A stretch of 64,000 nucleotides of DNA. Source: Candidatus Woesearchaeota archaeon (lineage in GTDB: Archaea > Nanobdellota > Nanobdellia > SCGC-AAA011-G17 > PNOQ01). Where the stretch lies: assembly GCA_964344655.1 (NCBI GenBank), contig CAYFOF010000003.1, positions 428 through 64,427 on the forward strand, in the 5' to 3' direction. The translations under genes were made by a program, and so were the position numbers. The notes beneath the pieces were generated by a model that was given only the letters and a program-made list of their open reading frames with translations, searched no databases and was not told the DNA's origin. Position 1 is the first letter of the stretch. Each line of letters begins with the position of its first letter. Shown piece by piece: positions 43 to 27,603 of the stretch.

Positions 43-150
43 TTAACTCTTCAATCTCTTTCTCTTTCTCTTCTCTTTCTTCATTCTCTTACGTTGCCAC
101 TTCCAACGCATTTGTCCTTTCTTTTTCCAACGTCTTGAACTTCTTTTCAT
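43..150 (-). CDS. Very small, highly basic protein (35 aa, MKRSSRRWKKKGQMRWKWQRKRMKKEKRKRKRLKS); possible L41e-like ribosomal micro-protein
   Basis: Hand-translated ORF absent from the ORF track (<60 aa). It is extremely K/R/W-rich, like eukaryotic/archaeal L41e. A TATA-like TTTATAAA lies about 30 nt upstream (178-192, palindromic so it reads on either strand). Confidence 0.3.
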   Translation of the reverse strand: MKRSSRRWKKKGQMRWKWQRKRMKKEKRKRKRLKS

Positions 151-177
151 CTTGAGTGTTTTTCAAAGTTAAACTGT

Positions 178-192
178 GTTTTATAAATGTTT
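178..192 (-). promoter_or_regulatory. Putative archaeal TATA box (gttttataaatgttt) upstream of the 43..150 micro-ORF
   Basis: TTTATAAA core about 28-35 nt upstream of the ATG at 150. Similar TTTATAAAT elements recur upstream of other genes in this window. Confidence 0.3.
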
Positions 193-206
193 CTAAAATT
201 AATTCA

Positions 207-1232
207 TTAGATTGACCTAAATAAATTTGCTCCCCATGTGAATCCTGCACCGAATGCTACATAAGCAACTAGATCTCCTCTCTTTATTATTTCCTTTTCA
301 TATGCTTCATTTGCTGCGATTGGAATTGAAGCTGTTGATGTATTTCCATATTTTTGTAAGTTTGTATAAATGACCCCATCAAATTCATCTCTTCTTAATC
401 TTTTTTCTGGACGATCAATTATTCTCATATTTGCTCCATGAGGTATTATTCCATTTAAATCTTCTAATATATATTGTGTTCCTTCTAAAACTTTTCTTAC
501 TGCATGTTCCATTATTGGGGCTGCATATTCAAATACTGACCTTCCATCCATAACTAAATAGTTTTGTTCTGCTTCAATAGTTTTTAGACCTCCTTGTCCA
601 TCGGAAACTAATTTTTTCCCCAGTTTTTTTTCTAAAGATAATTTTCCAAATGGGAAATCCTCACTTCCCTCGTCGGGTTTTCCACCAACTACATTATTTA
701 TTATTCCTTCTTGACCTTCTAATCTTTCTAATAAATATGCTCCAGCACCATCTCCAAATAAAACACATGTATTTCTGTCTGAGTAGTCTGTCATGTCTGT
801 TAATCTTTCTCCACCAATAACTAAAATTTTTTTTAAACTTGGATCAGCTACTAAATTATTGTGGGCTTGTCGTATAGCATAAACTAATCCAGAACAACCA
901 GCACCCACATCAGAAAGTGCTGCGTTTTCTATTTCTAATTCTTTTGCAACATGGCCAGCATGACAAGGAAATTCTTTACTCCCATCATGTAAATTTGTAG
1001 CAAAGATAATTTCATCAATTTCACGATCAAAAATTAGTTCTTTATCCAATAATTTTTTTGCTGAAATTGCTCCCATTTCACTAATTCCGAGATCTAATGA
1101 AATTCTTCTTTCTCCCATTCCTGTTCTTTCTCTTATCCATTCATCTGAAGTATCTACTATTGTTTCTAGAAATTCGTTTGTGATTATTGTTTCTGGAATG
1201 TGAACTGCCGGTCTTGATAATATAATTCCCAT
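207..1232 (-). CDS. fabH: 3-oxoacyl-[ACP] synthase III-like (KAS III / FabH family) condensing enzyme
   Basis: FabH-like motifs IRERTGxxxR, active-site Cys in DVGAGCSGLVYAI, and His/Asn in HGANMRIID...AFGAGFTWG; 341 aa is the right length for KAS III. Confidence 0.8.
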   Translation of the reverse strand: MGIILSRPAVHIPETIITNEFLETIVDTSDEWIRERTGMGERRISLDLGISEMGAISAKKLLDKELIFDREIDEIIFATNLHDGSKEFPCHAGHVAKELEIENAALSDVGAGCSGLVYAIRQAHNNLVADPSLKKILVIGGERLTDMTDYSDRNTCVLFGDGAGAYLLERLEGQEGIINNVVGGKPDEGSEDFPFGKLSLEKKLGKKLVSDGQGGLKTIEAEQNYLVMDGRSVFEYAAPIMEHAVRKVLEGTQYILEDLNGIIPHGANMRIIDRPEKRLRRDEFDGVIYTNLQKYGNTSTASIPIAANEAYEKEIIKRGDLVAYVAFGAGFTWGANLFRSI

Positions 1233-1279
1233 TGAAATGCTAATGTGTTTGTATTAATATAACTTATGATAATAAAGAA

Positions 1280-1354
1280 TGCTCCTGCCGGGATTTGAAC
1301 CCGGGTCTTCGGCGCGAAAGGCCGAAATGCTGGACCGGACTACACTACAGAAGC
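1280..1354 (-). tRNA. tRNA-Glu (anticodon UUC)
   Basis: On the reverse complement: 7-bp acceptor GCTTCTG/CAGGAGC with one GU, anticodon stem TCGGC/GCCGA with loop CTTTCGC (anticodon TTC), and T-arm CCGGG-TTCAAAT-CCCGG. Length 75 nt. Confidence 0.8.
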
Positions 1355-1402
1355 ATATTCATTTTGGGTAAATCTTTCCTTTTTAAATGTTTTGAAAAAG
1401 AG

Positions 1403-1516
1403 TGGGCCTGACCGGATTTGAACCGGCGACCTCTGGTGTTCCTAGCATGCTATTGGATTATATCCAATAACCGTCATATAAGACCAGTGCTATAAACCAG
1501 ACTAAGCTACAGGCCC
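1403..1516 (-). tRNA. Intron-containing tRNA (about 114 nt); anticodon tentatively UAU (Ile) with a roughly 38-nt intron after position 37
   Basis: On the reverse complement: acceptor GGGCCTG/CAGGCCC plus discriminator A, and T-arm GCCGG-TTCAAAT-CCGGT. Anticodon stem CTGGT ... ACCAG is split by an insert that contains an internal TTGGAT/ATCCAA hairpin. The exon loop reads CTTATA|intron|C. Confidence 0.6.
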
Positions 1517-1791
1517 GCTAGCAATATTTGTTTACTAGAAATTGTTTTTAAAACTTTCGAGTTTAAAGAAATTCTTCTTCTAATTGATTTTTTGGCATTA
1601 ACACTTCTGGGATTTCCGCAGGCATATCTAATGTTTCAGAACCTTCATAATGCGTTCCAATAGAAGAAGGTAAATATAATGAAATTAATATTGGTAAAGT
1701 ATAATTAATAACTGCCTTTCTTAGTCCTCTCATGTCGTCCATAAATTTACTTTTTGCGTGATATTCCATTTTTTTGTGAATTGTTTTTATT

Positions 1792-2253
1792 TTATAAATT
1801 TATTTTTCCTTTGGCATATAAATAAACAAACCAAAGAAATCCTAAACCCATATCTATTATTGCTAAAGGGATGTGTTTTATCCCGTTCAATAGTGAAACC
1901 GTTTGTGTAGTTTGATAAATTGAGATCCATGGATAAAATGGCCATAATAATTGAACTCCTGGACCTGTGAATAAATCTAGGAAAATATGGATTAATATTC
2001 CTATTGGAAATAGGAGTGCGTATTTGTTTTTTCTTACTAATAGTATAGAGAAAAATGCAAAAAATAATGAGTGAGTTATTGTTCTGTGTATTGGTTCTTG
2101 GAGTAATATTTGAAAAATGAAATCTATATCTGGGAAAATTCCTCCCAGAAATAAAAGTATCCAAGCTTGTTTTGGTAATTTTTTATTTGAAACTTTTTGT
2201 ATAATTAATCCTACTATCCAAGCTCCAATTAAATGACCGAAAGCAAATGCCAT
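1792..2253 (-). CDS. Polytopic membrane protein, likely a membrane-bound metal-dependent hydrolase (YdjM/DUF457-like)
   Basis: Four to five hydrophobic helices, conserved His/Asp (PDIDF, HRTITHS, HIFLD), 153 aa. The overlapping ORF 1787..2164 in another frame is judged spurious. Confidence 0.45.
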   Translation of the reverse strand: MAFAFGHLIGAWIVGLIIQKVSNKKLPKQAWILLFLGGIFPDIDFIFQILLQEPIHRTITHSLFFAFFSILLVRKNKYALLFPIGILIHIFLDLFTGPGVQLLWPFYPWISIYQTTQTVSLLNGIKHIPLAIIDMGLGFLWFVYLYAKGKINL

Positions 2254-2370
2254 AATTTTTTGAATAGTGATTATTTTAAAAGAGTTTTGAAAGATAATTA
2301 TTGTTTACTTTATAGTAGTTACAATAGAAAGGTTTATATAGTGTGGATTTTCTTTGTGGTTTACTTAAAA

Positions 2371-3159
2371 ATGAAAAATAAATTTGTAAATGGGGCGTTA
2401 GCTTTTTTTGCGGGGGGTATTTTTGCTATTGGAGCTGGCCTATTTGGGGCAGAGGTTGTATCAAAAATTGAAGATAGATTTAGAGATATACCTCAAGAAA
2501 ATAGATTAGAAGAAGTAATAAAGAAACCAATTTATTTTAACTTTAATTCTGGAGATGAAAAAAGACAAAATTTAGTAAGAGAATTTGGACTAGTATACAA
2601 CTTGGCAAGAAAAAATTGGGATAATTTCGATGAACAATGGGATTTAGTAAAAAATGTTCGTTTAAATGTTGATTCTGAAAGTCCAAAAAGAACGGGGAGA
2701 ACCGATAGATTTGATAGATTACATTTGACTTTATATGGAGATCAAAGAGAGGCTATAATCCTCATCCATGAACTAGCACATATTTGGGAAAGAAATAAAA
2801 CAGACCAAAGATTTTCACAAAAATGGCAGGCGCTATCTAAAGGAGAATATACTCCCGATTGGAAAAATGCATCTTTTTCAGATGTTATAAAAAATGGCTC
2901 TGTTTCTTATTATTCTATGAAAAGTATTCATGAAGATATAGCAACAATTTGTGAATTTGTTTTTGCTTTGAATAGCCCTCATATTTTTGTGGGTGGCTAT
3001 CCAAATACGCTAGTTGGTAAAGATTTTTATTATAGAGATTTTATTACTTCGAGTATTTCACACCCTAAAATTAGAGAAAAGTTGAAACTATTAAGAAATT
3101 ATGATTTTTTTTCGGAGAGAGAATATAGAATTACTCTTGATGAGATGGCGGAAGATTAA
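2371..3159 (+). CDS. Membrane-anchored HExxH zinc metallopeptidase-like protein
   Basis: HELAHIWE matches HExxH. N-terminal hydrophobic anchor MKNKFVNGALAFFAGGIFAIGAGLF. Start moved to the internal Met at 2371 because the track's 2233 start overlaps the convergent membrane-protein gene. Confidence 0.55.
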   Translation: MKNKFVNGALAFFAGGIFAIGAGLFGAEVVSKIEDRFRDIPQENRLEEVIKKPIYFNFNSGDEKRQNLVREFGLVYNLARKNWDNFDEQWDLVKNVRLNVDSESPKRTGRTDRFDRLHLTLYGDQREAIILIHELAHIWERNKTDQRFSQKWQALSKGEYTPDWKNASFSDVIKNGSVSYYSMKSIHEDIATICEFVFALNSPHIFVGGYPNTLVGKDFYYRDFITSSISHPKIREKLKLLRNYDFFSEREYRITLDEMAED

Positions 3160-3204
3160 TGGATGGAAATTATTCGGATCATATGCAAGGAATGATTGAG
3201 TACG

Positions 3205-6200
3205 CTAGATAGATTCAGAAAATAAATAATCTACAATTCTTTGCCATATTGATTTTTCTGAAGATAGTTTTGGAACTTTTTTTGTTACTGGTTCTTCAGT
3301 TTTTGTTATTGACTCTCCGGTTTTTGTTGAAGGTGTTGTCTCTTCATCTCTTATTGGTATAGTTGGATTTTCAATTCCTTCTGGGTCTTCTAATGTTTCG
3401 GGAAAATCCCTTATCTCTGGCAGGGTTTCTTCGTCTTTACAAGCTATTGTTTGAACTTGTGTGCAACCATCATTAATTGTTGCTCTATTTGCAGATCCAA
3501 ATGTTGATTCTGGAACACTACACTTCATGTCCATTTCGTTTAAACATATCTTATTATTTGAAAAAGTATTGCCCGTTGCTAGATGACTAATATCTACTCC
3601 TCTTTGATTATTTGAAATTTCATTAAAGTTAAATTCATTATTATTTGCGTTGTAAATACTTAACCCTACAAGAGGGTTGTCCTTTCCAACAATTTTATTG
3701 TTATCAAATATATTATCATGAGAATGTTTTGTTCCTATTCCGATTAATTCATTTATTATTGTATTATCTTTGATTATATTATCATTTGATAAATACATGT
3801 TTATTCCTACTATGTATTCTTTAATTGTACATCCATATATCGTTACTCCAGATCTTTGAGTTAGATCTATCCCTGCACCATTTTGGATTCCGTTTATTTC
3901 TGCATCGTGGCAATTGAATTTAATATTATCTGCCAATATTTTTACTCCATTATCTAAGTAATATTTTTTGGGACAAACCCATGTGTCTGTAGTTATTTCT
4001 TCTATTTCTGAATTGTATTCTGAACAATAGGTTTGATCAAAATCTGTGTGAGATATGTGTTCTGTGAAAACGTTTGGAAAATCATTGGCAACCGTTTCAT
4101 AAGAATATGCGCCATCGGTTCTTTTTAACTCTATACTTACTAATTCATATTGTCCGGTGCCAAGAGAATTATATATTTCTTTTCCACGGAAAGTTTCTTT
4201 TAGAGTGTGTGTTCCTGGTTTTAGGGTTTGTTTGCCATCATTAAAAAAACTATAAATTATGTCTCCTCCAGGAGTACGCAAATGACCACTTAACGAATAT
4301 TCTCCTTCTTCATATATTTCTACTTCTGCATTCCATTTTAATAGTTCATATTTTCCATCATCATTTAAGTCTTCAATTAAATAATCATAATCTCCTGTAA
4401 ATTCTGCCACTATGTTTTCGTGTTGAAAATCAGAATATTTGTATGAGCTTGTTACAAACGGAAAATTTCCACAATGTATTCTTGATGTTTCTTCTCTTGC
4501 ACACATAGATACCAATTCATAAGGCCCATCAAGTCCTGCACGATATATATTTGATCCAGGATGTAAAGAAGTTAATGTGTGTGTTCCAGGAATTAAATAA
4601 ATTCCAGAAGAGGGCTCAGAGTGGGAGGAATGTGTAATTTCATCTCTTTCTCCTAAATAAATCTGAGAGGTTAAATGATAATAACCTGGTTCAGTTACTT
4701 GTACATCTGAGTCTATAGCGAGGTAATCATACAGCCCATCTCCATCAGTATCGATAGGATAGTCTTCATAATTTCCTGTTATTAAAATTCCTGGTTCATC
4801 GAAATTTAAAGTGATTGTGTTAGATTCAAACCCGGCGGGGTAAGCACTTTCGGGTATGCCTTCGTATACAACTTTTAATTCGTGATCTCCTGAAGTGAAA
4901 AAATCTTTATCTATTTCTTGATGTGTGAAGCGTATTGGGATGATTTTTGCTCCATCTACATAAAAATAAAATGGTAACTTTCCACAATTTGCTCCAAGAT
5001 TGTCTGTGCATGTACCAGATAAATCCAATACACATTTTGTTGATATTGGAGAAACGGGATCTATTATACAATCTTCAGAAGAAATAGCAAAATCTAAATC
5101 TGATATTTCTCTTTGTTTTATTGCAATTGGCTCTATCGTATAGTATATAGAACTCTCTCCCAAAGATATGTCAACTCTAAAACTTATACTTTCACTAGAT
5201 ATTTGCCCTAGGTTAACTTCAACTTCAGGATAATTTATGGTTGGTTGAATTTCAATCCAACTACCGTCTGTTTTATAATAGGTATTTAATGATAATTGAG
5301 CTTGGCTTCCAAGATTATTTTCTATTATTCTGAACTTTAATATTTTGTCTTGATTAGAATTATAGTAAGACTCAGATTCAATAAATTCTATATGGGGGAA
5401 TTCATAGTCTTTAGAAGAGGATATTGTTGTTTCGCCTTCTATTGTATAGTTTCGTACATCATCGTAAGAAGGCATATGTAAATTAAATGAGTATGTGTCT
5501 CCAGAAGTTAATGTAAATAATTCTCCAATTTCTTCTCCGGGATTACGATATTTTTCGTGGTGATATTCATCAAATTCGTCTGTTGACACTTGAACACCAT
5601 TTATGTATTCTTTTAATACAGGATACATTGATCTGTCTTTTAGATCTTGTATAATGACATAATTTACTTCAGTAGGATACAGCACGCTTTTTAGTGTTAA
5701 AGCATATTCTCCACCCAAAGTATTATTTAAATATGGTTCTGTAAAATATAATATTTGGCTAAAGAAATTTGCGTTATATGTTTGTCCTAGATCTAGAGGT
5801 CCTTCGAAATATTGCTCTTTGTAAATATTATCGAAATTATCATCTTCGTCATATCCCCATATTCTTGATTCTACATCTAAAAATGTGAAGTCGTCATTGA
5901 ATGGTCTAAAATATTCTATTGTACCATCTGGGTTGTATGTTTTAGAAAATAAATGAGATGTTCTATCATAGGGTAAAACCCCCATACTTCCAACTGCAGT
6001 GATAGATCCAGTAAAAGGATCTATAAGATGTAGAAAAGTGTATATGCTGTCTTCTGAAACGGCGCCAAGTAAATTTGTTTTTGCATTAAAATGTGTTAGT
6101 TCTCCTTGTGAAAAATCTAAATTTGTGGAAGTTGAATCACTTACATCTTTTAATATATAATATTCTATATATTCTTCTTCTGCCATATTATAATATGGAG

Positions 6201-6279
6201 AAACATAACAACCAGATATGAATAATAGTGAGGATAACAGAAATATTACTGCCGATATTTGAAACTTATGTTGGATCAC
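3205..6279 (-). CDS. Large (1024 aa) secreted/lipobox surface protein with a C-terminal right-handed parallel beta-helix (PbH1/NosD-like) repeat region and a T/P/K-rich stalk
   Basis: N-terminal signal with lipobox-like LFISGC. Repeated N/D/G-x-I/V turns (DNTIINE, FDNNKIVG, NFNEISNN, TFSNNKI) typical of beta-helix repeats. C-terminal low-complexity TPSTKTGESITKTEEPVTKKVP. Overlaps the upstream subtilisin gene by 14 nt, so likely an operon. Confidence 0.7.
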   Translation of the reverse strand: MIQHKFQISAVIFLLSSLLFISGCYVSPYYNMAEEEYIEYYILKDVSDSTSTNLDFSQGELTHFNAKTNLLGAVSEDSIYTFLHLIDPFTGSITAVGSMGVLPYDRTSHLFSKTYNPDGTIEYFRPFNDDFTFLDVESRIWGYDEDDNFDNIYKEQYFEGPLDLGQTYNANFFSQILYFTEPYLNNTLGGEYALTLKSVLYPTEVNYVIIQDLKDRSMYPVLKEYINGVQVSTDEFDEYHHEKYRNPGEEIGELFTLTSGDTYSFNLHMPSYDDVRNYTIEGETTISSSKDYEFPHIEFIESESYYNSNQDKILKFRIIENNLGSQAQLSLNTYYKTDGSWIEIQPTINYPEVEVNLGQISSESISFRVDISLGESSIYYTIEPIAIKQREISDLDFAISSEDCIIDPVSPISTKCVLDLSGTCTDNLGANCGKLPFYFYVDGAKIIPIRFTHQEIDKDFFTSGDHELKVVYEGIPESAYPAGFESNTITLNFDEPGILITGNYEDYPIDTDGDGLYDYLAIDSDVQVTEPGYYHLTSQIYLGERDEITHSSHSEPSSGIYLIPGTHTLTSLHPGSNIYRAGLDGPYELVSMCAREETSRIHCGNFPFVTSSYKYSDFQHENIVAEFTGDYDYLIEDLNDDGKYELLKWNAEVEIYEEGEYSLSGHLRTPGGDIIYSFFNDGKQTLKPGTHTLKETFRGKEIYNSLGTGQYELVSIELKRTDGAYSYETVANDFPNVFTEHISHTDFDQTYCSEYNSEIEEITTDTWVCPKKYYLDNGVKILADNIKFNCHDAEINGIQNGAGIDLTQRSGVTIYGCTIKEYIVGINMYLSNDNIIKDNTIINELIGIGTKHSHDNIFDNNKIVGKDNPLVGLSIYNANNNEFNFNEISNNQRGVDISHLATGNTFSNNKICLNEMDMKCSVPESTFGSANRATINDGCTQVQTIACKDEETLPEIRDFPETLEDPEGIENPTIPIRDEETTPSTKTGESITKTEEPVTKKVPKLSSEKSIWQRIVDYLFSESI

Positions 6280-8677
6280 TTTCTACCCCCTTTCTTTGGA
6301 AAAATACACCCATCTCATCATTAAAATCGGTGGGTTTTTTTGACACATATATTTTGTAACTTCCAGTTTTGGGATAACTAGAAGTAAATCTAGACCTAAC
6401 AAGATCTATTCCGTTTGAAAAATAATATCCTGATTCTTGATTCGAACTGAGATCTTTTCCATTTATTGATTTTCCTTCAACTATGAATTCTTTTGCATCT
6501 GCTATTCTTAAATTAAGTGTTTTGTCTTGATTTTCTTGGAGGTACACAGAATCATACAAAAAATATTCTGAATCTTGAGTTCCAAACATTGTTGCAGTAA
6601 TAAGATATTGTTGTTCTCCCTTGAAGGCACCCACCATTGATTCGTCCCTTCCAAGATAAGCATATTTTCTAGAAGATGCAAAATCAGAGTTATATACAAT
6701 AAAGGAAAAAATGGGATTAACTATATAGTCTTGTCTATCTTCTATATTTATTGTAACTTTGCTTAATTTTGTAATTGTGTAGGGTATTACATGGGGCTTT
6801 CCATTTTGTATAAGCTTTATTTTTCCAAAAAATATTCCAGACTTTCCAGTCGCATCTATGTTAAAATTTAATGTTTTTTCATTTTCTCCCCTTACGTATA
6901 ATGTTGAAACTTCTGGAGTCATTATATTGTGTTGTGTAGTAATCCCCTCTTTTATATCAAAAAATTCATTTGCTGGCTCTACTATAACATCCAGTACAAG
7001 AGTTTCTAATCCAAGATTGGAAATAACTATATTATCATTTCCCGTTGGGTTTCCGGCTTCTACATTCACAGATAATGAAGATTTGTCAGTAGAAAATTTT
7101 AAATCGTTTGTTCCTGATAAATTTAATTGACCAGATCCTTGGTAGAGTGTGTTTGGAGATCCTGTAGCGCCCGGAGCGCCAAAATCTAATTCTGTTGCAG
7201 AAAGAGTTATTGCAGTTTTGATTTGTTGAGGAGTCCAATCTGGATTAGCTTGTTTTATTAGAGCTGCTGCTCCTGCAACATGAGGAGTTGCCATACTAGT
7301 ACCAGAAATTGCTATATGATCCCCATCTTTACATGAATTAGAAGATTGATAGGTTCCATGTTGAGATGCACAAATTTCCACCCCTGGTGCAACTATGTCT
7401 GGTTTTGATATTGATTCTCCGATTACTATTGCTGGACCCTTTGAACTAAAAGCTGCAATTGGAAATTCTTCTCTACAATAAGGCAAATACTCTCCGGTCC
7501 AAGAGATTGATCCTCCTTGGTTATACGCTTTACATGAGGCACCCACCGTAATTGCAGTTCTTGCAATTCCAGGAGTTTTTATTTTTCCGTAATCCCATGA
7601 ATTTCCTGCAGCAATTGCTGCAGTCACGCCTATTTCTGTTGCTGCGTCTATTGCTTCAGCCATTGAATCATAATATCTTGTGCTTCCTCCCAAACTTAAA
7701 CTTATTACGTCTAAATGATCTGAAAAATCATCATCCCCATTTGGATCCATTGAGGCTTCAATTCCTGCGATAATGCTTGCTGCCGATCCGCCACCAGAAG
7801 AACTTAAAACTTTGTAAGCATAAATTGTTGCATCTGGAGCAACTCCCTTCAATCCTAATCCATAAGCATCTATTCCTGCAGCAGTGGCAGCGCAATGAGT
7901 TCCGTGTCCATGATCATCAATTGGATCAGGATCTTCATTAATGAAATCGTACCCTCCTTCAACCTTGCAACCACTTCCAAAACACCCTCCCAAATCTGAA
8001 TGAGTGTAATCTACTCCAGTGTCTAATATTCCAATTGTGGTTCCTTGGCCAGTATAACCTTGATTCCAAAATGCATCTGAAGAAATAATTCCTGTTGATT
8101 GATCCAATGATGCAGTTACTCCAGTATTTGGCATTATCCTTTTAATATTTGGATTTTTTTCTAATTCATTTAATTCTTCGTTTGTAAGTTTCTTTTCTAT
8201 TACAATACCATTAATTGCTTTATAAAATTCTTTTTTAACGACGATATTTTCATTGATTTTTTTTAAATCATCTTTTAGTTTTTTTTGTTCTTCTTTTATT
8301 GTTATTTTTTGTGCTTCTTTTGTTGCTTTGTTGTGGAATTTATACAATGGTTCAGACTTTAGTTCTATTATATGCCCTATAGAATATTCTATATCTATTG
8401 GTAATGAATTTATATCTGTGTTTTTGAATATTATGTCTCCCTTGTCCCCCATTGAGATTGTTATTAAATCTTCAATTCCCTCTAAACGGAAAGTGTAATC
8501 TCCGTAGTTGAAATCATATGATGCTAAAGTTAATTCTCCTGTTTCTCTATTTAATATTTCAAAATCGACAATTTTTGCATTGTCTTGAGTGATTGCTTTG
8601 GAAAATTGTGGTTCAAATTGTGTACAACCACTCAAAAACAGAACTGAAATTAGTATTAATATTACACCCCTTTTCAT
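6266..8677 (-). CDS. Subtilisin-like serine protease (peptidase S8), lipoprotein-type signal peptide, with a C-terminal extension
   Basis: Catalytic triad in canonical order: Asp in GILDTGVDYTH, His in HGHGTHCAATAAG, oxyanion Asn in AIAAGNS, Ser in GTSMATPHVAGAAALI. N-terminal MKRGVILILISVLFLSGC is a lipobox. Confidence 0.9.
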   Translation of the reverse strand: MKRGVILILISVLFLSGCTQFEPQFSKAITQDNAKIVDFEILNRETGELTLASYDFNYGDYTFRLEGIEDLITISMGDKGDIIFKNTDINSLPIDIEYSIGHIIELKSEPLYKFHNKATKEAQKITIKEEQKKLKDDLKKINENIVVKKEFYKAINGIVIEKKLTNEELNELEKNPNIKRIMPNTGVTASLDQSTGIISSDAFWNQGYTGQGTTIGILDTGVDYTHSDLGGCFGSGCKVEGGYDFINEDPDPIDDHGHGTHCAATAAGIDAYGLGLKGVAPDATIYAYKVLSSSGGGSAASIIAGIEASMDPNGDDDFSDHLDVISLSLGGSTRYYDSMAEAIDAATEIGVTAAIAAGNSWDYGKIKTPGIARTAITVGASCKAYNQGGSISWTGEYLPYCREEFPIAAFSSKGPAIVIGESISKPDIVAPGVEICASQHGTYQSSNSCKDGDHIAISGTSMATPHVAGAAALIKQANPDWTPQQIKTAITLSATELDFGAPGATGSPNTLYQGSGQLNLSGTNDLKFSTDKSSLSVNVEAGNPTGNDNIVISNLGLETLVLDVIVEPANEFFDIKEGITTQHNIMTPEVSTLYVRGENEKTLNFNIDATGKSGIFFGKIKLIQNGKPHVIPYTITKLSKVTINIEDRQDYIVNPIFSFIVYNSDFASSRKYAYLGRDESMVGAFKGEQQYLITATMFGTQDSEYFLYDSVYLQENQDKTLNLRIADAKEFIVEGKSINGKDLSSNQESGYYFSNGIDLVRSRFTSSYPKTGSYKIYVSKKPTDFNDEMGVFFQRKGVESDPT

Positions 8678-8696: not shown

Positions 8697-8710
8697 GGTT
8701 TATAAATATT
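8697..8710 (+). promoter_or_regulatory. Putative archaeal BRE/TATA promoter element (ggtttataaatatt) for the GTPase gene
   Basis: TTTATAAAT about 55 nt upstream of the ATG at 8763. An identical 14-mer recurs at 46091-46104. Confidence 0.35.
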
Positions 8711-9965: not shown

Positions 9966-11174
9966 ATGTATAAAAAAGAGGAATTAAAACACCTTTGGAA
10001 ATTTTACGTTATTAATTTTACTGAGCATCTATTTGGTTTGGGAGTACTTATTTGGATAGTATATTTTGTAAGTAAAGGTTTTTCGTTTACAGAAGTGAGT
10101 TTAGCCTTAGCAATTTTTTCTGGGACATTATTTTTATTGGAAGTTCCCACTGGGGCGATTGCAGATATTTTTGGTAGGAAAAGAAGTGTATTTTTATCAT
10201 TCTTTTTAGTTGCATTATCCTCTTTACTAGTGCCATTTGTATCTGGATTTCTACAATTATGCGCTTTATGTTTTCTTTGGGGAGGAGCATTAACATTAGC
10301 ATCGGGAGCAGATGAGGCATTAGTAATAGATTATTTGCACAGAAAAAAAAGGAAGGACTTAATTGATGATTACTATGCAAAATCTGCTAGTATAAACCAG
10401 GTGGGTTTATTTTTTTCTGGTCTGTTATTAACGGGGCTTTTATTTATTTTAAATGATTCAATTAATTTTTCGGCCTATGATAAGATTTGGTTCATACAGG
10501 CAGGAGGTATGTTTCTTGTTGGATTAATAGCATTAACTATTGATGAAAAAATAAAAAAACCCAAGAAGCAAAATATTACATTTTTAAATACTTTGCATTT
10601 TTCAAAATCTGGATTTTCTTATGTAAAAAATCACAAAAAACTTTTGAAGATATTTATAGGATTCTCCTTTTTTAGTTTTGCTGGGTCTCTTTGGTATTTT
10701 GCATATCAACCATTTTTATTGAATTCTGGATTTGAAATGAAAGATTTTGGATGGATAGAAAGTTTAACAAGTATTTTTGGGGTATTTCTTCCTCTCTTTG
10801 CTATTAAGTTAGGAAAAAAATTCAAAGATAAGTATAAATTAATCTACTTTATATCCTTATTTAAGTTTATATTTATGTTTACAGTTTTATTATTTTTTGG
10901 CCCATTATTTGCACTAACATTTTATCTTATAATGGGAGGATTTGGTTTTTTTATATTTCCTATCTTAAATCCTATCATTCAAAAAAATATTCCATCTGAA
11001 AAGAGGGCTACAATTGGATCTATAAGGAATATGTTTTTTTCAATTGGAGAAATAGTGCCCCTATTATTTGCGGGGTTATTAGTAGATTTAATAGGTACAA
11101 AATTCACAATAATTGTTTCTGCATTGTTTATTATTCCTTTGATCTGGATATTTTATAGTTTAAGAAAAAGTTAA
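9966..11174 (+). CDS. Major facilitator superfamily transporter
   Basis: About 12 predicted TM helices, MFS-like loop motif GAIADIFGRKR between TM2 and TM3, 402 aa. Confidence 0.7.
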   Translation: MYKKEELKHLWKFYVINFTEHLFGLGVLIWIVYFVSKGFSFTEVSLALAIFSGTLFLLEVPTGAIADIFGRKRSVFLSFFLVALSSLLVPFVSGFLQLCALCFLWGGALTLASGADEALVIDYLHRKKRKDLIDDYYAKSASINQVGLFFSGLLLTGLLFILNDSINFSAYDKIWFIQAGGMFLVGLIALTIDEKIKKPKKQNITFLNTLHFSKSGFSYVKNHKKLLKIFIGFSFFSFAGSLWYFAYQPFLLNSGFEMKDFGWIESLTSIFGVFLPLFAIKLGKKFKDKYKLIYFISLFKFIFMFTVLLFFGPLFALTFYLIMGGFGFFIFPILNPIIQKNIPSEKRATIGSIRNMFFSIGEIVPLLFAGLLVDLIGTKFTIIVSALFIIPLIWIFYSLRKS

Positions 11175-12028
11175 TCCTTGGCAAATAGTTCTAGTGATTT
11201 TTTAACTGCGTTTAGCCTTGCTTGGAATATGTTATCACTATCTTTATAATTATGATCTAAAATGTGGTAAACAAAGGCTTCTGCAAATTGTTCATCGGCT
11301 TTTGCTATAGCATATTCTGCATCTATATCAAATCCTGGAGGGATTGAACTATAGAGGGATAAGTATGATGGATGGCCGGGAATTTTTTCTCCGTTATATG
11401 CTGCTGCATTATCTAGAAATTGAAATTGTAGCGTTAAATCTATTTGATTTTCTAACCCAATCATATCAAAATAAACATGTCCCATATTGTGGAGTACTTG
11501 TGCAACCATTGGTTTATCATATGGGACTGAAAATCTTTCATCTATTGGTTTAGGTAATGCACCAAAAAGAACAGGGATTGAGTTATTAAATGGGAAGTCC
11601 TTTTGATGTTCTTCAAAATTTTTCATAACAATTAGATAATGACCATAAGGATTCCAGTAGGGAACATTTACTTCAAAGAGATTTTCTGTGTTTGATCTTG
11701 GAACTCCGGGCATAGATTCACAAAATAGACTATCTGCTTCTGCAGATAGTTTGTCTATGTGTTTTTTTTCTATGAAAAATATGTCAGGTAAAAAATATTT
11801 TTCTTGAACGTTTATTTGGGCTACTGCTATAGCAGAAACTCCAAAAACAGAGAAACCATCTGTTGATAAATTTAGTTTTTGAGCTAGTGATTGTCCTTCT
11901 CTTAAATCTTCTTGTGTAATGTCTACTGTTTTTCTTGGTAAGTCTTGTTCTAACCTTCTTTCTAAACATCCGGACGAAGTTAAACTAATTGAAATTGCTG
12001 CTATTGCGGGAAGAATCAAATTTCTCAT
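11171..12028 (-). CDS. Hypothetical secreted lipoprotein (about 285 aa)
   Basis: Start trimmed to the internal Met giving MRNLILPAIAAISISLTSSGC (signal plus lipobox). The longer track ORF would overlap the LAGLIDADG gene. No recognizable catalytic motif. Confidence 0.5.
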   Translation of the reverse strand: MRNLILPAIAAISISLTSSGCLERRLEQDLPRKTVDITQEDLREGQSLAQKLNLSTDGFSVFGVSAIAVAQINVQEKYFLPDIFFIEKKHIDKLSAEADSLFCESMPGVPRSNTENLFEVNVPYWNPYGHYLIVMKNFEEHQKDFPFNNSIPVLFGALPKPIDERFSVPYDKPMVAQVLHNMGHVYFDMIGLENQIDLTLQFQFLDNAAAYNGEKIPGHPSYLSLYSSIPPGFDIDAEYAIAKADEQFAEAFVYHILDHNYKDSDNIFQARLNAVKKSLELFAKD

Positions 12029-12129
12029 AAAAAAGGAAGTTGAAGTTATGTTATAAAATGTTTGATTGTGGTTGTCAGCTTGCCAAACGTGCAGAGATTG
12101 TTTATATATTAAGTAAATAATAAAATCAT

Positions 12130-12840
12130 ATGGATAAAATAAGTGAAGAATTGGCGGAACTGATCGGGATACATATTGGTGATGGATGTTTGAGTAATAA
12201 TGGAAGATATAAGGAGGTCGCATTGGCGGGAGACCTTTTAGAAGAAAAGTCATATTATGATGATTACGTAGTTCCTCTTTTTAATAAAATAATCGCAAAA
12301 AATATTTTAAATAAAGAAGTAAAGGCCAAGGCATACCCATCAACAGGAGTTTATGGATTTTTTATTTTTAATGGAGCTCTTTTTGATCATTATGAATCAT
12401 TGGGGATCACAGTGGGATCGAAAATACGAACTAAAATCCCAGAAATCTTTTTGTCAAAAAAATTAATTAAGCATGTCATAAGAGGAATTTTTGATACAGA
12501 CGGAAATTTGTATTTTGACAAAAATAGAACTGCTAAAAATCCTATTAATAAAGTTCCAATAATTAAGTTATCTAGTACATCTAATATTCTTATAGAACAA
12601 GTTTTTAATGAATTAGTTAAATTAGGATATCACCCAAGAAAGAAAAAACCGTATAAGGGAAAAAGAGATAAAAATCAAAACCATATACTTCTCATTTATA
12701 GAAAAAAAGATGTAAAAAGATATATAGAAGAAGACATAGGATTCAATAATTTAAAACATCAAGTAAAGTGGGACTTTTTCAAAAAATATGGATACTATGT
12801 CCCTCGCATGACTACAAAAGACAGACAAAAACTTTTATAA
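12130..12840 (+). CDS. Free-standing double-motif LAGLIDADG homing-endonuclease-like protein
   Basis: Two LAGLIDADG-type motifs, LIGIHIGDGCL (N-terminal) and IRGIFDTDGNLYF (mid-protein). 236 aa and a basic C-terminus are typical of single-chain monomeric LAGLIDADG enzymes. Confidence 0.75.
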   Translation: MDKISEELAELIGIHIGDGCLSNNGRYKEVALAGDLLEEKSYYDDYVVPLFNKIIAKNILNKEVKAKAYPSTGVYGFFIFNGALFDHYESLGITVGSKIRTKIPEIFLSKKLIKHVIRGIFDTDGNLYFDKNRTAKNPINKVPIIKLSSTSNILIEQVFNELVKLGYHPRKKKPYKGKRDKNQNHILLIYRKKDVKRYIEEDIGFNNLKHQVKWDFFKKYGYYVPRMTTKDRQKLL

Positions 12841-12866: not shown

Positions 12867-12952
12867 GCGGGTGTGCCAGAGTTCGGTCAAATGGGGTGGA
12901 CTTAAGATCCATCGGCTTAGTGCCTGCGCAGGTTCAAATCCTGTCACCCGCA
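12867..12952 (+). tRNA. tRNA-Leu (anticodon UAA), class II with long variable arm
   Basis: Acceptor GCGGGTG/CACCCGC plus discriminator A, anticodon stem GTGGA/TCCAT with loop CTTAAGA (anticodon TAA), long variable arm, and T-arm GCAGG-TTCAAAT-CCTGT. Length 86 nt. Confidence 0.85.
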
Positions 12953-26049: not shown

Positions 26050-27603
26050 TTATTTTCTCCATCTTCCTTTAATGATTGGAAGTGCTTGAACTAATCCTCC
26101 TTCATATAGTACCCCATTGCCCGCCATTGAAGTTGAAGGTTGTCCTAATTGATAATCTAAAGGTATTAATGAACTTGTTCCAACAGACATTGATCCTTTG
26201 CTTACTTCTAGTTGATGAACGTGCCCCATAATGACTTTTCCATAGGCTTCTATTAAACTTTTTAGTGAGCCTCTTCCGCCATTTTTTCCTTTGTGACCAT
26301 GGGCACCACATTGATATCCCCAATACATTGCGTCTTCACCAAGTCTTAGGAATCTTAGATTATTTGGGATTTTATTTTCAAAAAGTTTTCTTATTGCTAC
26401 TTCAAGTGCATTATCTTTAACAGAATTAAAAGATTCAGCCCCCAATATTCTGTGTGCCATTTTTCTATTTTGTGGATCACTTCTATAAGCTCCTTTTGCT
26501 AACCAACGATATAACATATCGTCATGATTGGAGTAGTTAACGATTACTTCACCTTTTCCTGCTCTTTTTGCTTTCTCTATTAGATATTCTCCAGTTTCAT
26601 AAAGCTCTTCTTCAAGACTTCTAACTCTTCTTTCATGTTTGTCTGTTTGTGCAACTTCGTCATCTAGTTCATGAAGATTTATTGATTGAGCACTGAATGC
26701 GTCGTGAATGTGTATGTGTTCTGGAGCAAAATAATCTATCATTTCGTTGTTTGCTTCATCTGTTTCTGGATCTAATTCAGAAACGTGGGAATCTCCAAGA
26801 ACTAAAGCAACTGTTTTTGCTTTGTGGGGTTTTACTCCTTTTGCGTACTTTATTCCTAAATCTATAAATGTTCCATTTGCTTGAGCAGGAACTATTCTTG
26901 GAAGGTATAATTTTTCATCTAAAACATCAACAACTACAAATCCAAATTCATGCTCTTCATCAGCATCATATCCCCTTCTATTTGTAGTGTTATAACTTGG
27001 ATGAGTGCAACATCCTGTCGTTAACATTAATTTTGGGTATTCTCCAGATTGTCCTTTTGCTACAGGAGTTAATACTTGTTTTGGGCTTGGCATAACAATT
27101 GAACTTCCGCCGTGTTTTTTTGTATATTTTCCTTTCCCAGTTAAAGGATTTTGATTTTGAGAGGGTTCTGGAACCGCTATTAGTCGTACATTTGTATTTA
27201 ATCTTTCTCCCGTTGTTTCATAATTAGTATTTGGCATTTCATTCCAAAAAAAATGCATTGGCATTTTTGGAGATCTTCCTTTTTCTCTCCAATTATCTCT
27301 CTTTTCTTGTTCTCTTTCTTTTTGCATTTCTAATCTGCCTTTTGCATTACTTTCCATATATACATCATCTCTTTTGTGGAAAAATGGATGTAATTCAATT
27401 TCATTAACGTAAGATCCGGGAATTGCACAAATTCTTAATTCCCCTTCGTTATCTCGAACATATCTTTCTAAATTTTTTATAAGTGGTAAATTTGGAGCAC
27501 CTTTAGAAGAATCTCTTCCATAGTGTTCAGCAGAATGAGGATTTTGAATGCCTTGCGCAGCAGTTATAGCAATAGTTTTAGTTTTAGAATTATCACCCTC
27601 CAT
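26050..27603 (-). CDS. Two-domain protein: N-terminal region of unknown function plus C-terminal calcineurin-like metallophosphoesterase domain
   Basis: Phosphoesterase motifs LGDSHV (GDxH), HIHDAF, YSNHDD (GNHD/E-like) and GHVHQ (GHxH) in residues about 260-470. 517 aa. Confidence 0.7.
   Translation of the reverse strand: MEGDNSKTKTIAITAAQGIQNPHSAEHYGRDSSKGAPNLPLIKNLERYVRDNEGELRICAIPGSYVNEIELHPFFHKRDDVYMESNAKGRLEMQKEREQEKRDNWREKGRSPKMPMHFFWNEMPNTNYETTGERLNTNVRLIAVPEPSQNQNPLTGKGKYTKKHGGSSIVMPSPKQVLTPVAKGQSGEYPKLMLTTGCCTHPSYNTTNRRGYDADEEHEFGFVVVDVLDEKLYLPRIVPAQANGTFIDLGIKYAKGVKPHKAKTVALVLGDSHVSELDPETDEANNEMIDYFAPEHIHIHDAFSAQSINLHELDDEVAQTDKHERRVRSLEEELYETGEYLIEKAKRAGKGEVIVNYSNHDDMLYRWLAKGAYRSDPQNRKMAHRILGAESFNSVKDNALEVAIRKLFENKIPNNLRFLRLGEDAMYWGYQCGAHGHKGKNGGRGSLKSLIEAYGKVIMGHVHQLEVSKGSMSVGTSSLIPLDYQLGQPSTSMAGNGVLYEGGLVQALPIIKGRWRK

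What the first reader, a model, noticed from the sequence alone, without database searches (positions are those of the whole stretch)
2371..8677. Secreted proteolysis/adhesion module: HExxH peptidase, 1024-aa beta-helix lipoprotein, subtilisin lipoprotein
Two overlapping minus-strand genes (subtilisin S8 with complete D-H-S triad, and a 1024-aa protein with pectate-lyase-like parallel beta-helix repeats and a T/P/K stalk) both begin with lipobox-type signal peptides (LFLSGC, LFISGC). A divergently oriented HExxH metallopeptidase sits next door. Beta-helix proteins are common carbohydrate-binding or degrading and adhesin scaffolds. Pairing one with a dedicated subtilisin suggests a surface complex for attachment to, or digestion of, a partner cell envelope, or a maturation protease for the surface protein.
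Basis: partly seen in the sequence, partly recalled or inferred. Interest (0 to 1): 0.55.

Follow-up and report, generated by a model that had tools for sequence, protein, structure and literature searches.

The report
Conserved archaeal surface protease–lipoprotein gene pair
Two overlapping genes of a small symbiotic-type (DPANN) archaeon, a membrane-tethered subtilisin protease and a lipid-anchored surface protein that starts with a previously undescribed 470-residue domain, are a strictly conserved pair in related archaea, whereas the beta-helix and the neighbouring metallopeptidase that drew attention are not part of the conserved unit.

Summary
The three ORFs, both lipoboxes, the Asp-His-Ser triad, the HExxH motif and a NosD-type beta-helix are real. 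The window is archaeal and DPANN-like (31% GC).

The S8/1024-aa pair is conserved, but not through the beta-helix. The constant element of the 1024-aa protein is residues 25-500 ('N-dom'), which has no Pfam or PDB sequence match.

In 15 loci with different flanking genes, an N-dom protein lies directly downstream of an S8 subtilase on the same strand. The genes usually overlap. The S8 always carries a particular C-terminal pair of beta-sandwich domains ('C-dom'). A 16th locus has a large downstream ORF that I could not read.

- 14 of 15 N-dom proteins have a lipobox.
- One partner consists of N-dom alone.
- Everything after N-dom varies: Ig-like repeats, CARDB, beta-helix, C-terminal membrane anchor.
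- One S8 without C-dom has no such neighbour.
- N-dom distances track C-dom distances, not catalytic-domain distances.

The Mx1 HExxH peptidase is convergent, not divergent, and is absent from the 10 other loci for which gene-family calls were returned.

Best model (inferred, not shown): propeptide cleavage frees the protease from its own anchor, and the lipid-anchored N-dom partner holds it at the cell surface, as tetrabrachion holds the STABLE protease. This would be a new variant of a known kind. Interest is moderate.

The parts
8699..8706 (-). TATA-like box TTTATAAA, centred about 26 nt upstream of the S8 ATG (possible archaeal promoter, leaderless or short-leader mRNA)
   Evidence: Read directly from the sequence. 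Function is inferred only. The sigma-70 scan is not informative for archaea.
6266..8677 (-). Gene 1: pre-pro-subtilase (S8), 803 aa
   Evidence: ORF. Pfam Peptidase_S8, 178.8 bits. Best PDB sequence matches are 9ues, Tk-SP 3afg and Vpr 8jmw. Closest relatives are 42-45% identical, from DPANN-type contigs.
8624..8677 (-). S8 signal peptide with lipobox L-S-G-C (Cys18)
   Evidence: Translation and lipobox screen. Orthologues carry FVSSC, FISSC or FGTSC, or an N-terminal TM anchor instead.
8114..8374 (-). I9-like propeptide (residues 102-188), placed between the anchor and the catalytic domain
   Evidence: Pfam Inhibitor_I9 19.1 bits, below the 21.2 cut-off. The region is 39-45% identical to that of P0154 and L002s, where I9 is called.
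7187..8050 (-). S8 catalytic domain (residues 210-497); D219 (8021-8023), H258 (7904-7906), N359 (7601-7603), S461 (7295-7297)
   Evidence: All four residues are invariant in 9 orthologues, and the domain is 57-66% identical among them.
6269..7105 (-). S8 C-terminal 'C-dom': two beta-sandwich domains (residues 525-803)
   Evidence: AF2 with 27 sequences: pLDDT 82.4, pTM 0.75, all-beta. Foldseek finds the post-catalytic domains of Vpr 8jmw and SpyCEP 5xxz/6vjb, and PapD/ASH-like folds. C-dom sits at the C-terminus of 37 of about 119 closest S8 clusters.
6286..6293 (-). Shine-Dalgarno-like AAGGGGGT, 6 nt before the GTG start of gene 2, inside the end of gene 1 (translational coupling)
   Evidence: Sequence. 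Function is inferred.
3205..6279 (-). Gene 2: 1024-aa acidic (pI 4.4) modular surface lipoprotein
   Evidence: ORF. Identical gene call in ENA/NCBI. pI.
6208..6279 (-). Signal peptide with lipobox I-S-G-C (Cys24)
   Evidence: A lipobox is present in 14 of 15 orthologous partners.
4780..6207 (-). 'N-dom' (residues 25-500): new conserved domain, the constant part of the partner family
   Evidence: No Pfam or NCBIfam hit and no PDB sequence hit with a profile. Homologous in P0008 and P0108 and in 12 further loci by HMM; held-out L010g and L011g score 344 and 388 bits. AF2: residues 220-490 form three beta-sandwiches (pLDDT 60-88); residues 25-210 are not modelled. Conserved residues are Y, T, P, G, L, W and a Cys pair (C424, C432), none of catalytic type.
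4045..4779 (-). Two tandem Ig-like repeats (residues ~501-622 and 623-745), each starting with a DxDGDG-type putative Ca-binding motif; DUF4785_3rd-like
   Evidence: Seen directly in the sequence. More than 1500 proteins match at E<=0.001, and these relatives hit PF20943. AF2 pLDDT about 90. Foldseek finds DUF4785 4kh9, RbmA and MG/Ig chains.
3505..3972 (-). Short NosD-type right-handed beta-helix (about 6 coils, residues ~770-925) with Cys-rich flanks
   Evidence: Pfam NosD 47.7 bits and Beta_helix 43.1 bits. TIGR04247 NosD family scores only 32 against a cut-off of 300. Shared only with P0008. The AF2 model is unreliable here.
3256..3438 (-). C-terminal E/T/P/K-rich disordered tail (residues 948-1008)
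   Evidence: Sequence. pLDDT below 50. A similar tail occurs in P0008.
3208..3255 (-). C-terminal short helix motif SIWQRIVDYLF (SFWSRLLEILS in P0008)
   Evidence: Alignment. Predicted helix 1011-1019. Function unknown.
2371..3159 (+). Neighbouring Peptidase_Mx1-type HExxH protein with an N-terminal TM/signal segment. It lies inside the finding's coordinates but is NOT part of the conserved module
   Evidence: Pfam PF15890 31.1 bits against 25.6. TIGR04549 39 bits against 75. Convergent with gene 2. No Mx1 gene in the 10 other loci with gene-family calls.

Best explanation
The region holds a two-gene surface module that is conserved in Woesearchaeota/Nanoarchaeota-type DPANN archaea.

- Gene 1 is a membrane-tethered pre-pro-subtilase. 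In order it has a lipobox or TM anchor, an N-terminal extension, an I9 propeptide, an active S8 domain and two C-terminal beta-sandwich domains (C-dom).
- Gene 2 is co-transcribed and translationally coupled. It encodes an acidic lipoprotein whose first ~470 residues (N-dom) sit next to the lipid-anchored cysteine.
- The rest of gene 2 is a lineage-variable extension. Here it is two Ca-motif Ig-like repeats, a short NosD-like beta-helix, a disordered tail and a short helix.

Proposed mechanism:
1. Both precursors are exported and, by inference, lipidated on the lipobox Cys.
2. The subtilase cleaves off its I9 propeptide, as subtilases generally do. That separates the mature enzyme (catalytic domain plus C-dom) from its own anchor.
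3. The mature enzyme is then held at the cell surface by C-dom binding to the N-dom of the partner.
4. The result is a cell-bound protease on a surface protein whose variable distal domains bind ligands.

Shown here: the gene pair, its architecture, its conservation, intact catalytic residues and lipobox conservation.
Inferred: lipidation, propeptide cleavage, physical docking and biological role (peptide scavenging and/or action on a partner's surface).

The Mx1 peptidase is an unrelated neighbour.
For: **Linkage from the S8 side**
- S8 proteins with C-dom were looked up in 9 places. Eight have an HMM-verified N-dom protein immediately downstream on the same strand; in the ninth (P0155) a 1459+ aa ORF follows but no DNA was returned.
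- The genes overlap by 4-62 nt or are separated by at most 58 nt.

**Linkage from the N-dom side**
- N-dom proteins found independently all have such an S8 directly upstream. These are P0008 and P0108 from an exhaustive HMMER search, and L014-L018 from a pattern scan of GTDB genomes.
- Flanking genes differ between loci.

**Controls**
- An S8 lacking C-dom (P0193) has no N-dom neighbour.
- Other large secreted proteins in these loci score below 3 bits against the N-dom HMM.

**What is core**
- In L015 the partner is N-dom alone: 476 aa, lipobox, 4-nt overlap with the S8 gene. N-dom is therefore the core and the rest is accessory.
- 14 of 15 partners have a lipobox 5-12 residues before N-dom.

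**Properties of the S8**
- The catalytic tetrad is invariant in 9 of 9.
- The only hydrophobic segment in the S8 proteins is N-terminal, before the propeptide.

**Co-variation**
- Over 14 pairs, N-dom distances correlate with C-dom distances (r=0.84). The partial r controlling for the catalytic domain is 0.76 (permutation p about 5e-4).
- Catalytic-domain against N-dom, controlling for C-dom, gives -0.11.

**Expression signals and precedent**
- An SD-like motif lies before the internal GTG, and a TATA-like box only before gene 1.
- The STABLE subtilase is bound to the tetrabrachion S-layer stalk (PMC5744192).
Against: - No direct evidence of a physical interaction. Complex prediction was not possible with these tools.
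- The mirror-tree signal can arise simply because two fast-evolving surface-exposed regions of one operon share lineage-specific rates, while the catalytic domain is near-saturated in conservation.
- There is only one negative control for S8 without C-dom.
- The first ~190 residues of N-dom could not be modelled (pLDDT below 50), so its fold and any binding surface are unknown.
- Many secreted subtilases are simply released after propeptide removal, so retention is an assumption.
- Five of the eight partners examined for hydrophobic segments also have a C-terminal TM and cytoplasmic tail. The docking model does not explain this.
- Lipidation in this lineage is untested, and AliA could not be searched for.
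Confidence: 0.45

Rival explanations
1. Dedicated maturation protease. The S8 does not stay bound. It cleaves its co-encoded partner at a specific site, for example separating N-dom from the distal part or shedding it from the lipid anchor or C-terminal TM. This is what is proposed for tetrabrachion precursor cleavage by STABLE. By my own recall, SphB1 acting on FhaB is a similar case.
For: The strict operon linkage and translational coupling are the same as for the main model. Five of eight partners are anchored at both ends, by a lipobox and a C-terminal TM, which would make sense if they are cut. [quoted passage not shown]
Against: The L015 partner is N-dom alone, with nothing obvious to release. 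No conserved linker or cleavage motif is evident after N-dom in the alignments. This model does not explain why the S8 C-dom, rather than the catalytic domain, co-varies with N-dom.
Confidence: 0.25
2. N-dom is a lipoprotein chaperone (maturase) or an inhibitor of the protease. It would fold or activate the S8, or keep it in check at the producer's own surface. By my own recall the lactococcal lipoprotein PrtM does the former for PrtP. The potempin lipoproteins encoded next to the KLIKK peptidases of Tannerella do the latter.
For: The partner can be N-dom only. It is lipid-anchored next to the membrane, where the pro-enzyme emerges. Lipoprotein inhibitors encoded adjacent to their peptidases are documented (PMC9890683 abstract).
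Against: In most loci N-dom is fused to 600-1500 residues of adhesin-like domains. That is unexpected for a chaperone or inhibitor. The S8 already carries its own I9 intramolecular chaperone/inhibitor. N-dom shows no similarity to PrsA/PrtM PPIases or to known inhibitors.
Confidence: 0.12
3. A three-gene secreted proteolysis/adhesion module, in which the beta-helix protein is a carbohydrate-active or carbohydrate-binding scaffold and the HExxH peptidase is a further component.
For: The beta-helix and HExxH domains are real. S8 domains are fused to NosD/Beta_helix domains in some other proteins, including one named Aenigmatarchaeota: P0203, P0250, P0260. This shows that the two domain types do work together on some surfaces.
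Against: The Mx1 gene is convergent and absent from the 10 other loci with gene-family calls. The beta-helix occurs in only 2 of 15 partners and is about 6 coils long. It scores 32 against 300 for NosD proper and E=0.1 to a lyase. There is no evidence of catalytic residues.
Confidence: 0.05
4. No functional coupling. A nutritional secreted protease and an unrelated surface protein merely happen to be neighbours.
For: Both domain classes are common in secreted proteomes.
Against: Adjacency in the same order and on the same strand in every locus examined, within otherwise unrelated gene contexts and found from both directions, with overlapping reading frames.
Confidence: 0.02

Closest known systems
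Tetrabrachion / STABLE protease of Staphylothermus marinus (archaeal S-layer protein carrying a bound subtilisin-family protease)
   Same: An archaeal cell-surface protein is functionally paired with a subtilase. The proposed roles are the same: protease held on the surface protein, precursor processing, peptide supply (PMC5744192).
   Different: There is no coiled-coil stalk; the AF2 secondary structure is almost all beta. The anchor is an N-terminal lipobox rather than the tetrabrachion architecture. N-dom is an unrelated new domain. Here the link is genetic (operon), and binding has not been shown. The lineage is DPANN, not Desulfurococcales.
Vpr / cell-envelope-proteinase type subtilases (Bacillus Vpr 8jmw, SpyCEP/ScpC 5xxz, 6vjb)
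   Same: An S8 catalytic domain is followed by Fn3/PapD-like beta-sandwich domains. These are the best sequence and fold matches.
   Different: No PA-domain insertion: the catalytic domain is a contiguous 288 aa. No C-terminal wall anchor. The tether is N-terminal, a lipobox or TM segment placed before the propeptide. A co-encoded N-dom partner is obligatory.
Archaeal lipobox lipoproteins (AliA/AliB pathway, Haloferax volcanii)
   Same: A canonical [L/V/I][A/S/T/V/I][G/A/S]C lipobox ends a Sec-type signal peptide. AliA (arCOG02177) is reported in DPANN (PMC12462473).
   Different: Lipidation has been shown only in haloarchaea. Neither AliA nor lipidation could be tested for this organism.
SPEARE proteins of Nanohaloarchaeota
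   Same: DPANN surface proteins that combine a serine-protease region with adhesion domains. Many have a C-terminal TM and a cytoplasmic tail (PMC6642349).
   Different: SPEARE is a single giant polypeptide with a cytoplasmic restriction-endonuclease-like region and laminin-G domains. Here there are two genes, no nuclease domain was found, and N-dom is new.
DUF4785 (Pfam PF20943, Legionella lpg0956, PDB 4kh9) and NosD/CASH beta-helix domains
   Same: The accessory domains of the 1024-aa protein belong to these domain classes.
   Different: They are accessory and are not conserved across the partner family. The protein is not NosD proper (TIGR04247 scores 32 against 300).

Membership tests
Subtilase, MEROPS/Pfam S8 (PF00082) | Asp-His-Ser triad in D-H-S order with an oxyanion Asn; profile score above the curated cut-off | tested here: met
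   178.8 bits against a cut-off of 21.8. D219, H258, N359 and S461 are invariant in 9 orthologues.
Subtilase with I9 propeptide (PF05922) | I9 domain N-terminal to the catalytic domain | tested here: inconclusive
   The window protein scores 19.1 bits against a cut-off of 21.2. The aligned region of orthologues is called I9 and is 39-45% identical.
Cell-envelope proteinase / Vpr type subtilase | Fn3-like beta-sandwich domains after the catalytic domain | tested here: met
   AF2 pLDDT 82. Foldseek hits to 8jmw, 5xxz and 6vjb.
Cell-envelope proteinase / Vpr type subtilase | PA-domain insertion and C-terminal wall or membrane anchor | tested here: not met
   The catalytic domain is contiguous (Pfam 210-497 onto profile 1-276). 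There is no C-terminal hydrophobic segment.
Dentilisin PrtP (NF033595) / mycosin (TIGR03921) | Equivalog model score above cut-off | tested here: not met
   46.7 against 300, and 105.3 against 278.75.
Lipobox lipoprotein (archaeal, AliA-dependent) | [LVI][ASTVI][GAS]C at the end of a signal-peptide h-region with a positive n-region | tested here: met
   LSGC (Cys18) and ISGC (Cys24). Conserved in 14 of 15 partner orthologues and in 4 of 9 S8 orthologues.
Lipobox lipoprotein (archaeal, AliA-dependent) | Thioether-linked archaeol on the Cys; AliA present in the genome | not testable with these tools
   No AliA sequence or model was available (no supplements held). Only 64 kb of the genome is in hand.
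NosD (TIGR04247) copper-maturation protein | Full-length family model above cut-off | tested here: not met
   32.4 bits against a cut-off of 300. Only the generic Pfam NosD/Beta_helix domain passes.
Polysaccharide lyase / glycoside hydrolase beta-helix enzymes | Conserved catalytic groove (Asp/Lys/Arg, Ca site) on a long beta-helix | tested here: inconclusive
   The AF2 model has pLDDT 26-48 at residues 790-1000. The best PDB sequence hit is the alginate lyase AlyF at E=0.1, over PbH1 repeats only. The helix has only about 6 coils, and one coil fewer in P0008.
DUF4785_3rd (PF20943) Ig-like repeat | Profile match | tested here: inconclusive
   The window protein has no direct hit at E<=0.01. 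Its repeats match P0005, P0013 and others at E down to 1e-157, and these hit PF20943 at up to 1.7e-89. There is a Foldseek hit to 4kh9.
Tetrabrachion-type S-layer protein | Long coiled-coil stalk with a C-terminal membrane anchor | tested here: not met
   The only predicted helices are the signal peptide and residues 1011-1019. There is no C-terminal TM.
Tetrabrachion-type S-layer protein | Physically bound subtilase | not testable with these tools
   Only genetic linkage and domain co-variation were obtained.
Peptidase_Mx1 (PF15890) | HExxH and profile score above cut-off | tested here: met
   IHELAH motif; 31.1 bits against 25.6. The weak PDB match is 4l7a, E=0.008.
   No Mx1 gene in the 10 other loci with gene-family calls. 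The orientation is convergent.
Bacterial alpha-2-macroglobulin-like lipoprotein (considered because of Foldseek hits to MG-domain chains) | Thioester CxEQ motif | tested here: not met
   None of the 15 Cys lies in a CxEQ context (sequence). The Foldseek hits are generic Ig/MG chains with TM below 0.2.

The most novel reading that the evidence does not exclude
The S8/N-dom pair is a DPANN-specific host-contact apparatus. The lipid-anchored partner presents rapidly diversifying distal binding domains (Ig, CARDB, beta-helix, MAM) that recognise the surface of a host cell. Through N-dom it positions a dedicated subtilase that opens the host's proteinaceous envelope. N-dom would then be a new protease-docking domain. 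The window also encodes a 2492-aa secreted protein with murein-degrading and lipase domains, which would fit an organism that attacks other cells.
Probability: 0.2. Interest if true: 0.8.

Novelty: new variant of a known kind. Interest (0 to 1): 0.5.

Why it matters
How DPANN archaea attach to other cells and feed is largely unknown. Almost all of their large surface proteins are unannotated.

- **A defined module.** This pair is recognisable by two profiles, N-dom and C-dom. It recurs across Woesearchaeota-type genomes with a constant base and a variable tip. That pattern is expected for a surface machine whose ligand changes from lineage to lineage.
- **A new domain family with a partner.** N-dom has no Pfam or PDB counterpart, but it now has a clear functional partner, which makes it directly testable by pull-down, complex prediction or protease assay.
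- **Evidence on archaeal lipoproteins.** The near-universal lipobox (14 of 15 partners) is comparative evidence that lipobox anchoring is under selection in DPANN. Lipidation has so far been demonstrated only in haloarchaea.
- **Practical value.** The pair is an annotation rule for hundreds of 'hypothetical' giant proteins.

Tried and rejected
1. **Word-indexed protein search.** The full 1024-aa protein found only itself. The 3-sequence N-dom alignment found nothing, not even the query. This is a limit of that tool. The exhaustive HMMER search was what revealed P0008 and P0108.
2. **Pattern scans with the 3-sequence alignment.** Scans of GTDB genomes and of metagenomes found nothing. A 7-sequence alignment was too divergent to build patterns. 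A 3-sequence alignment of the larger subgroup worked.
3. **Structure prediction.** The run with admissible rows left residues 25-210 and the beta-helix unmodelled.
4. **PDB sequence searches.** The N-dom profile gave no hit. The beta-helix gave E=0.1.
5. **Alpha-2-macroglobulin-like reading.** Suggested by Foldseek hits to MG-chain proteins. Rejected: no thioester motif and TM below 0.2.
6. **S8-N-dom fusion proteins (Rosetta stone).** None among 119 S8 hits and 147 repeat-protein representatives, and no second copy in the window.
7. **Relation between the Mx1 ORF and the other putative lipoprotein at 11171-12022.** None.
8. **Lipoprotein machinery (AliA).** No sequence was obtainable.
9. **Bacterial promoter/terminator scan.** Not informative: counts match the shuffles, and the organism is archaeal.
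10. **Literature.** Searches for a prior description of this pair in DPANN found none. This shows only that it is absent from the held library.

Full report
**1. What is at the coordinates**

The window is archaeal. It encodes TFB, ribosomal protein S8e, Kae1, GatD/GatE, deoxyhypusine synthase, an ATP-dependent DNA ligase and FtsZ. It also has an intron-containing tRNA that Rfam finds and ARAGORN misses. GC content is about 31%. The closest named relatives of the proteins studied here are 'Candidatus Woesearchaeota' and 'Nanoarchaeota' MAGs, so the organism is DPANN-like.

The three ORFs of the finding are real:
- A 262-aa HExxH protein at 2371-3159 (+). Pfam Peptidase_Mx1 scores 31.1 bits against a cut-off of 25.6.
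- A 1024-aa protein at 3205-6279 (-).
- An 803-aa S8 subtilase at 6266-8677 (-). Pfam scores 178.8 bits. The catalytic residues are D219, H258, N359 and S461.

The last two ORFs overlap by 14 nt. An SD-like AAGGGGGT lies 6 nt before the internal GTG, and a TATA-like box lies about 26 nt before the S8 ATG. Both proteins start with a signal peptide ending in a canonical lipobox. They are the only two such ORFs in 64 kb.

- The Mx1 gene is convergent with the 1024-aa gene, not divergent.
- The beta-helix (Pfam NosD and Beta_helix, residues 789-921) is a small part of the protein.
- The 'stalk' is a disordered C-terminal tail.
- The I9 match is marginal in the window protein.

**2. Anatomy of the 1024-aa protein**

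In order along the chain:
- Signal peptide and lipobox (residues 1-24).
- A 470-residue region, 'N-dom' (25-500), with no Pfam, NCBIfam or PDB sequence match.
- Two tandem ~120-residue repeats, each opening with a DxDGDG-type motif.
- A Cys-flanked beta-helix of about 6 coils.
- An E/T/P/K-rich tail.
- A short helix, SIWQRIVDYLF.

An exhaustive HMMER search with residues 25-770 showed that the repeats belong to a very large family: more than 1500 proteins at E<=0.001. Its members hit Pfam DUF4785_3rd. N-dom, in contrast, matched only two representatives in the top 150:
- P0008: 1327 aa, 38% identical. It has the same architecture, including the beta-helix and the C-terminal helix motif.
- P0108: 1241 aa, with no beta-helix and a C-terminal TM.

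AF2 (22 rows, mean pLDDT 59.6) models the repeats well, at about 90. It shows three beta-sandwiches at residues 220-490 (pLDDT 60-88). It fails on residues 25-210 and on the beta-helix. Foldseek returns only generic Ig/MG chains, RbmA and the DUF4785 structure 4kh9.

**3. The gene pair is conserved, and the conserved partner is N-dom**

Looking up P0008 and P0108 showed an S8 gene directly upstream of each, on the same strand, in unrelated gene contexts.

I then started from the S8. Its closest relatives share a ~300-residue C-terminal region, 'C-dom'; 37 of about 119 clusters have it. Every C-dom S8 looked up (P0155, P0160, P0163, P0174, P0179, P0168, P0186, P0173) is followed at once by a large ORF. 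These ORFs are 1299-2032 aa where complete; two run off the contig end.

An HMM of N-dom detects all those for which DNA was returned. That includes L010g and L011g, which were not used to build the model and score 344 and 388 bits over the whole profile. Other large secreted proteins in the same loci score below 3 bits.

A pattern scan of GTDB species genomes with N-dom found 7 loci, 5 of them new. All have a C-dom S8 immediately upstream.

In total, 15 loci have both halves verified. One further locus (P0155) has a large downstream ORF that I could not read. There are no exceptions.

- The single control, an S8 without C-dom (P0193, FG-GAP type), has no such neighbour.
- In L015 the partner is a 476-aa lipoprotein that is N-dom and nothing else, overlapping the S8 gene by 4 nt.
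- 14 of 15 partners carry a lipobox 5-12 residues before N-dom.
- The region after N-dom is variable: DUF4785-like Ig repeats, CARDB, MAM, beta-helix. Five of eight partners have a C-terminal TM with a cytoplasmic tail.
- No Mx1 peptidase occurs in the 10 other loci for which gene-family calls were returned.

**4. The subtilase**

The catalytic tetrad is invariant in 9 orthologues. The catalytic domain is 57-66% identical among them, and C-dom only 17-34%.

C-dom is two beta-sandwich domains (AF2 pLDDT 82.4). They resemble the post-catalytic Fn3/PapD-like domains of Vpr and SpyCEP. Sequence-wise the enzyme is nearest to Tk-SP (3afg), 9ues and Vpr. It fails the equivalog cut-offs for mycosin and dentilisin PrtP.

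The only hydrophobic segment in these S8 proteins is N-terminal, either a lipobox or a TM, and it precedes the I9 propeptide. Subtilase propeptides are removed autocatalytically; this is established knowledge of the family. The mature enzyme should therefore lose its own anchor. That step is an inference.

**5. Mechanism**

The data establish a two-gene, co-transcribed, probably translationally coupled surface module. Its constant parts are an active S8 with C-dom and a lipid-anchored N-dom. The most economical model is that C-dom docks the mature protease on N-dom at the base of a surface protein whose distal domains vary with the ligand.

Two observations point to C-dom/N-dom as the interacting pair:
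- C-dom and an N-dom neighbour occur together, and the one S8 without C-dom lacks the neighbour.
- A mirror-tree test over 14 pairs gives r(N-dom, C-dom)=0.84 against r(N-dom, catalytic)=0.58. The partial r for C-dom given the catalytic domain is 0.76 (permutation p about 5e-4). The partial r for the catalytic domain given C-dom is -0.11.

This test is suggestive only. Two fast-evolving exposed regions of one operon can co-vary without touching.

N-dom has no conserved catalytic-type residues. The invariant ones are Y, T, P, G, L, W and a Cys pair. This fits a binding or structural role.

The rivals are:
- The S8 is a dedicated maturase or sheddase of the partner.
- N-dom is a chaperone or inhibitor lipoprotein.

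The first two remain open. The third is contradicted for the Mx1 gene and unsupported for the beta-helix.

**6. Comparison with known systems**

The nearest functional precedent is the STABLE subtilase bound to the tetrabrachion S-layer stalk of Staphylothermus marinus. [quoted passage not shown] The present partner is not tetrabrachion-like: it has no coiled coil and a different anchoring.

SPEARE proteins of Nanohaloarchaeota combine protease and adhesion domains in one giant chain (PMC6642349). The present system is split into two genes and has no nuclease part.

Archaeal lipobox lipoproteins and their lipidation enzymes AliA/AliB are known from Haloferax, and AliA is reported in DPANN (PMC12462473). 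Lipidation could not be tested here.

I found no description of this gene pair or of N-dom in the held literature.

**7. Verdict**

It is partly wrong on the role of the beta-helix and on including the Mx1 peptidase.
- The real finding is a conserved DPANN surface module built around a new domain.
- I rate it a new variant of a known kind (a surface-protein-associated subtilase), of moderate interest.
- Clear experiments can decide between docking, maturation and chaperone/inhibitor roles.

Noticed in passing
window 16539-24017 (-), with 24014-25987 (-) and 26050-27603 (-): A 2492-aa secreted protein ends in an SLT lytic transglycosylase, DUF2272 and a GDSL lipase. Its start overlaps by 4 nt the end of the upstream 657-aa gene, which encodes a protein with an N-terminal hydrophobic segment. 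A 517-aa ORF lies further upstream. Neither of these two has a Pfam hit. Murein-degrading domains in an archaeon suggest action on bacterial cell walls.
   Followed up: partly
window 1403-1516 (-): A 114-nt tRNA match in Rfam (59.2 bits) that ARAGORN does not report. It is probably an intron-containing archaeal tRNA, next to tRNA-Glu at 1279-1355.
   Followed up: no
window 11171-12253 (-), probable start near 12022: A possible third lipoprotein (MRNLILPAIAAISISLTSSGC) with an HNMGH motif. It has no Pfam or NCBIfam hit and no similarity to the Mx1 protein.
   Followed up: partly
window 6266-8677 and 3205-6279; L003, L005, L007: N-glycosylation sequons are strongly depleted in the window pair (1 against 6.4 expected in the S8; 2 against 10.8 in the partner). 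They are 2.4-3.3-fold enriched in the partner proteins of L003, L005 and L007, and 1.8-3.1-fold in their S8 proteins. This may be a lineage difference in surface glycosylation.
   Followed up: no
L015 3586-5016 (+) after the S8 gene at 101-3589: A minimal version of the module. The partner is a 476-aa lipoprotein consisting of N-dom only, and it overlaps the S8 gene by 4 nt.
   Followed up: yes
L004 17422-17769, L006 17416-17757, L010 14818-15135; L004/L006 7119-7961 and 7089-7931: A small Heavy_Cys_CGP (PF27854) gene sits next to the partner gene in three loci. A SpoIIM gene lies directly upstream of the S8 in two related Woesearchaeota loci. SpoIIM is reported as a neighbour of aliA in other archaea (PMC12462473).
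   Followed up: no
L005 and L011 (both GCA_043823195.1): Two separate S8/N-dom modules lie on two contigs of one MAG, so the module can be multi-copy if the binning is right.
   Followed up: no
proteins P0203, P0250, P0260: S8 domains are fused to NosD/Beta_helix domains in single polypeptides. This is a domain-level link between subtilases and beta-helices on some surfaces.
   Followed up: no
window 12130-12840 (+): A free-standing LAGLIDADG_3 ORF (39.8 bits) lies immediately before tRNA-Leu (12867-12952). It overlaps the long 5' extension of the ORF at 11171-12253.
   Followed up: no
window 59897-62654 (-): A CARDB-containing secreted protein with a C-terminal TM (61126-61965) lies between an ABC ATPase-like gene (61962-62654) and an FtsX/MacB-like permease gene (59897-61129), with overlapping reading frames. 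Only the CARDB hit was tested. The ABC and permease identities are my reading of the translations.
   Followed up: no
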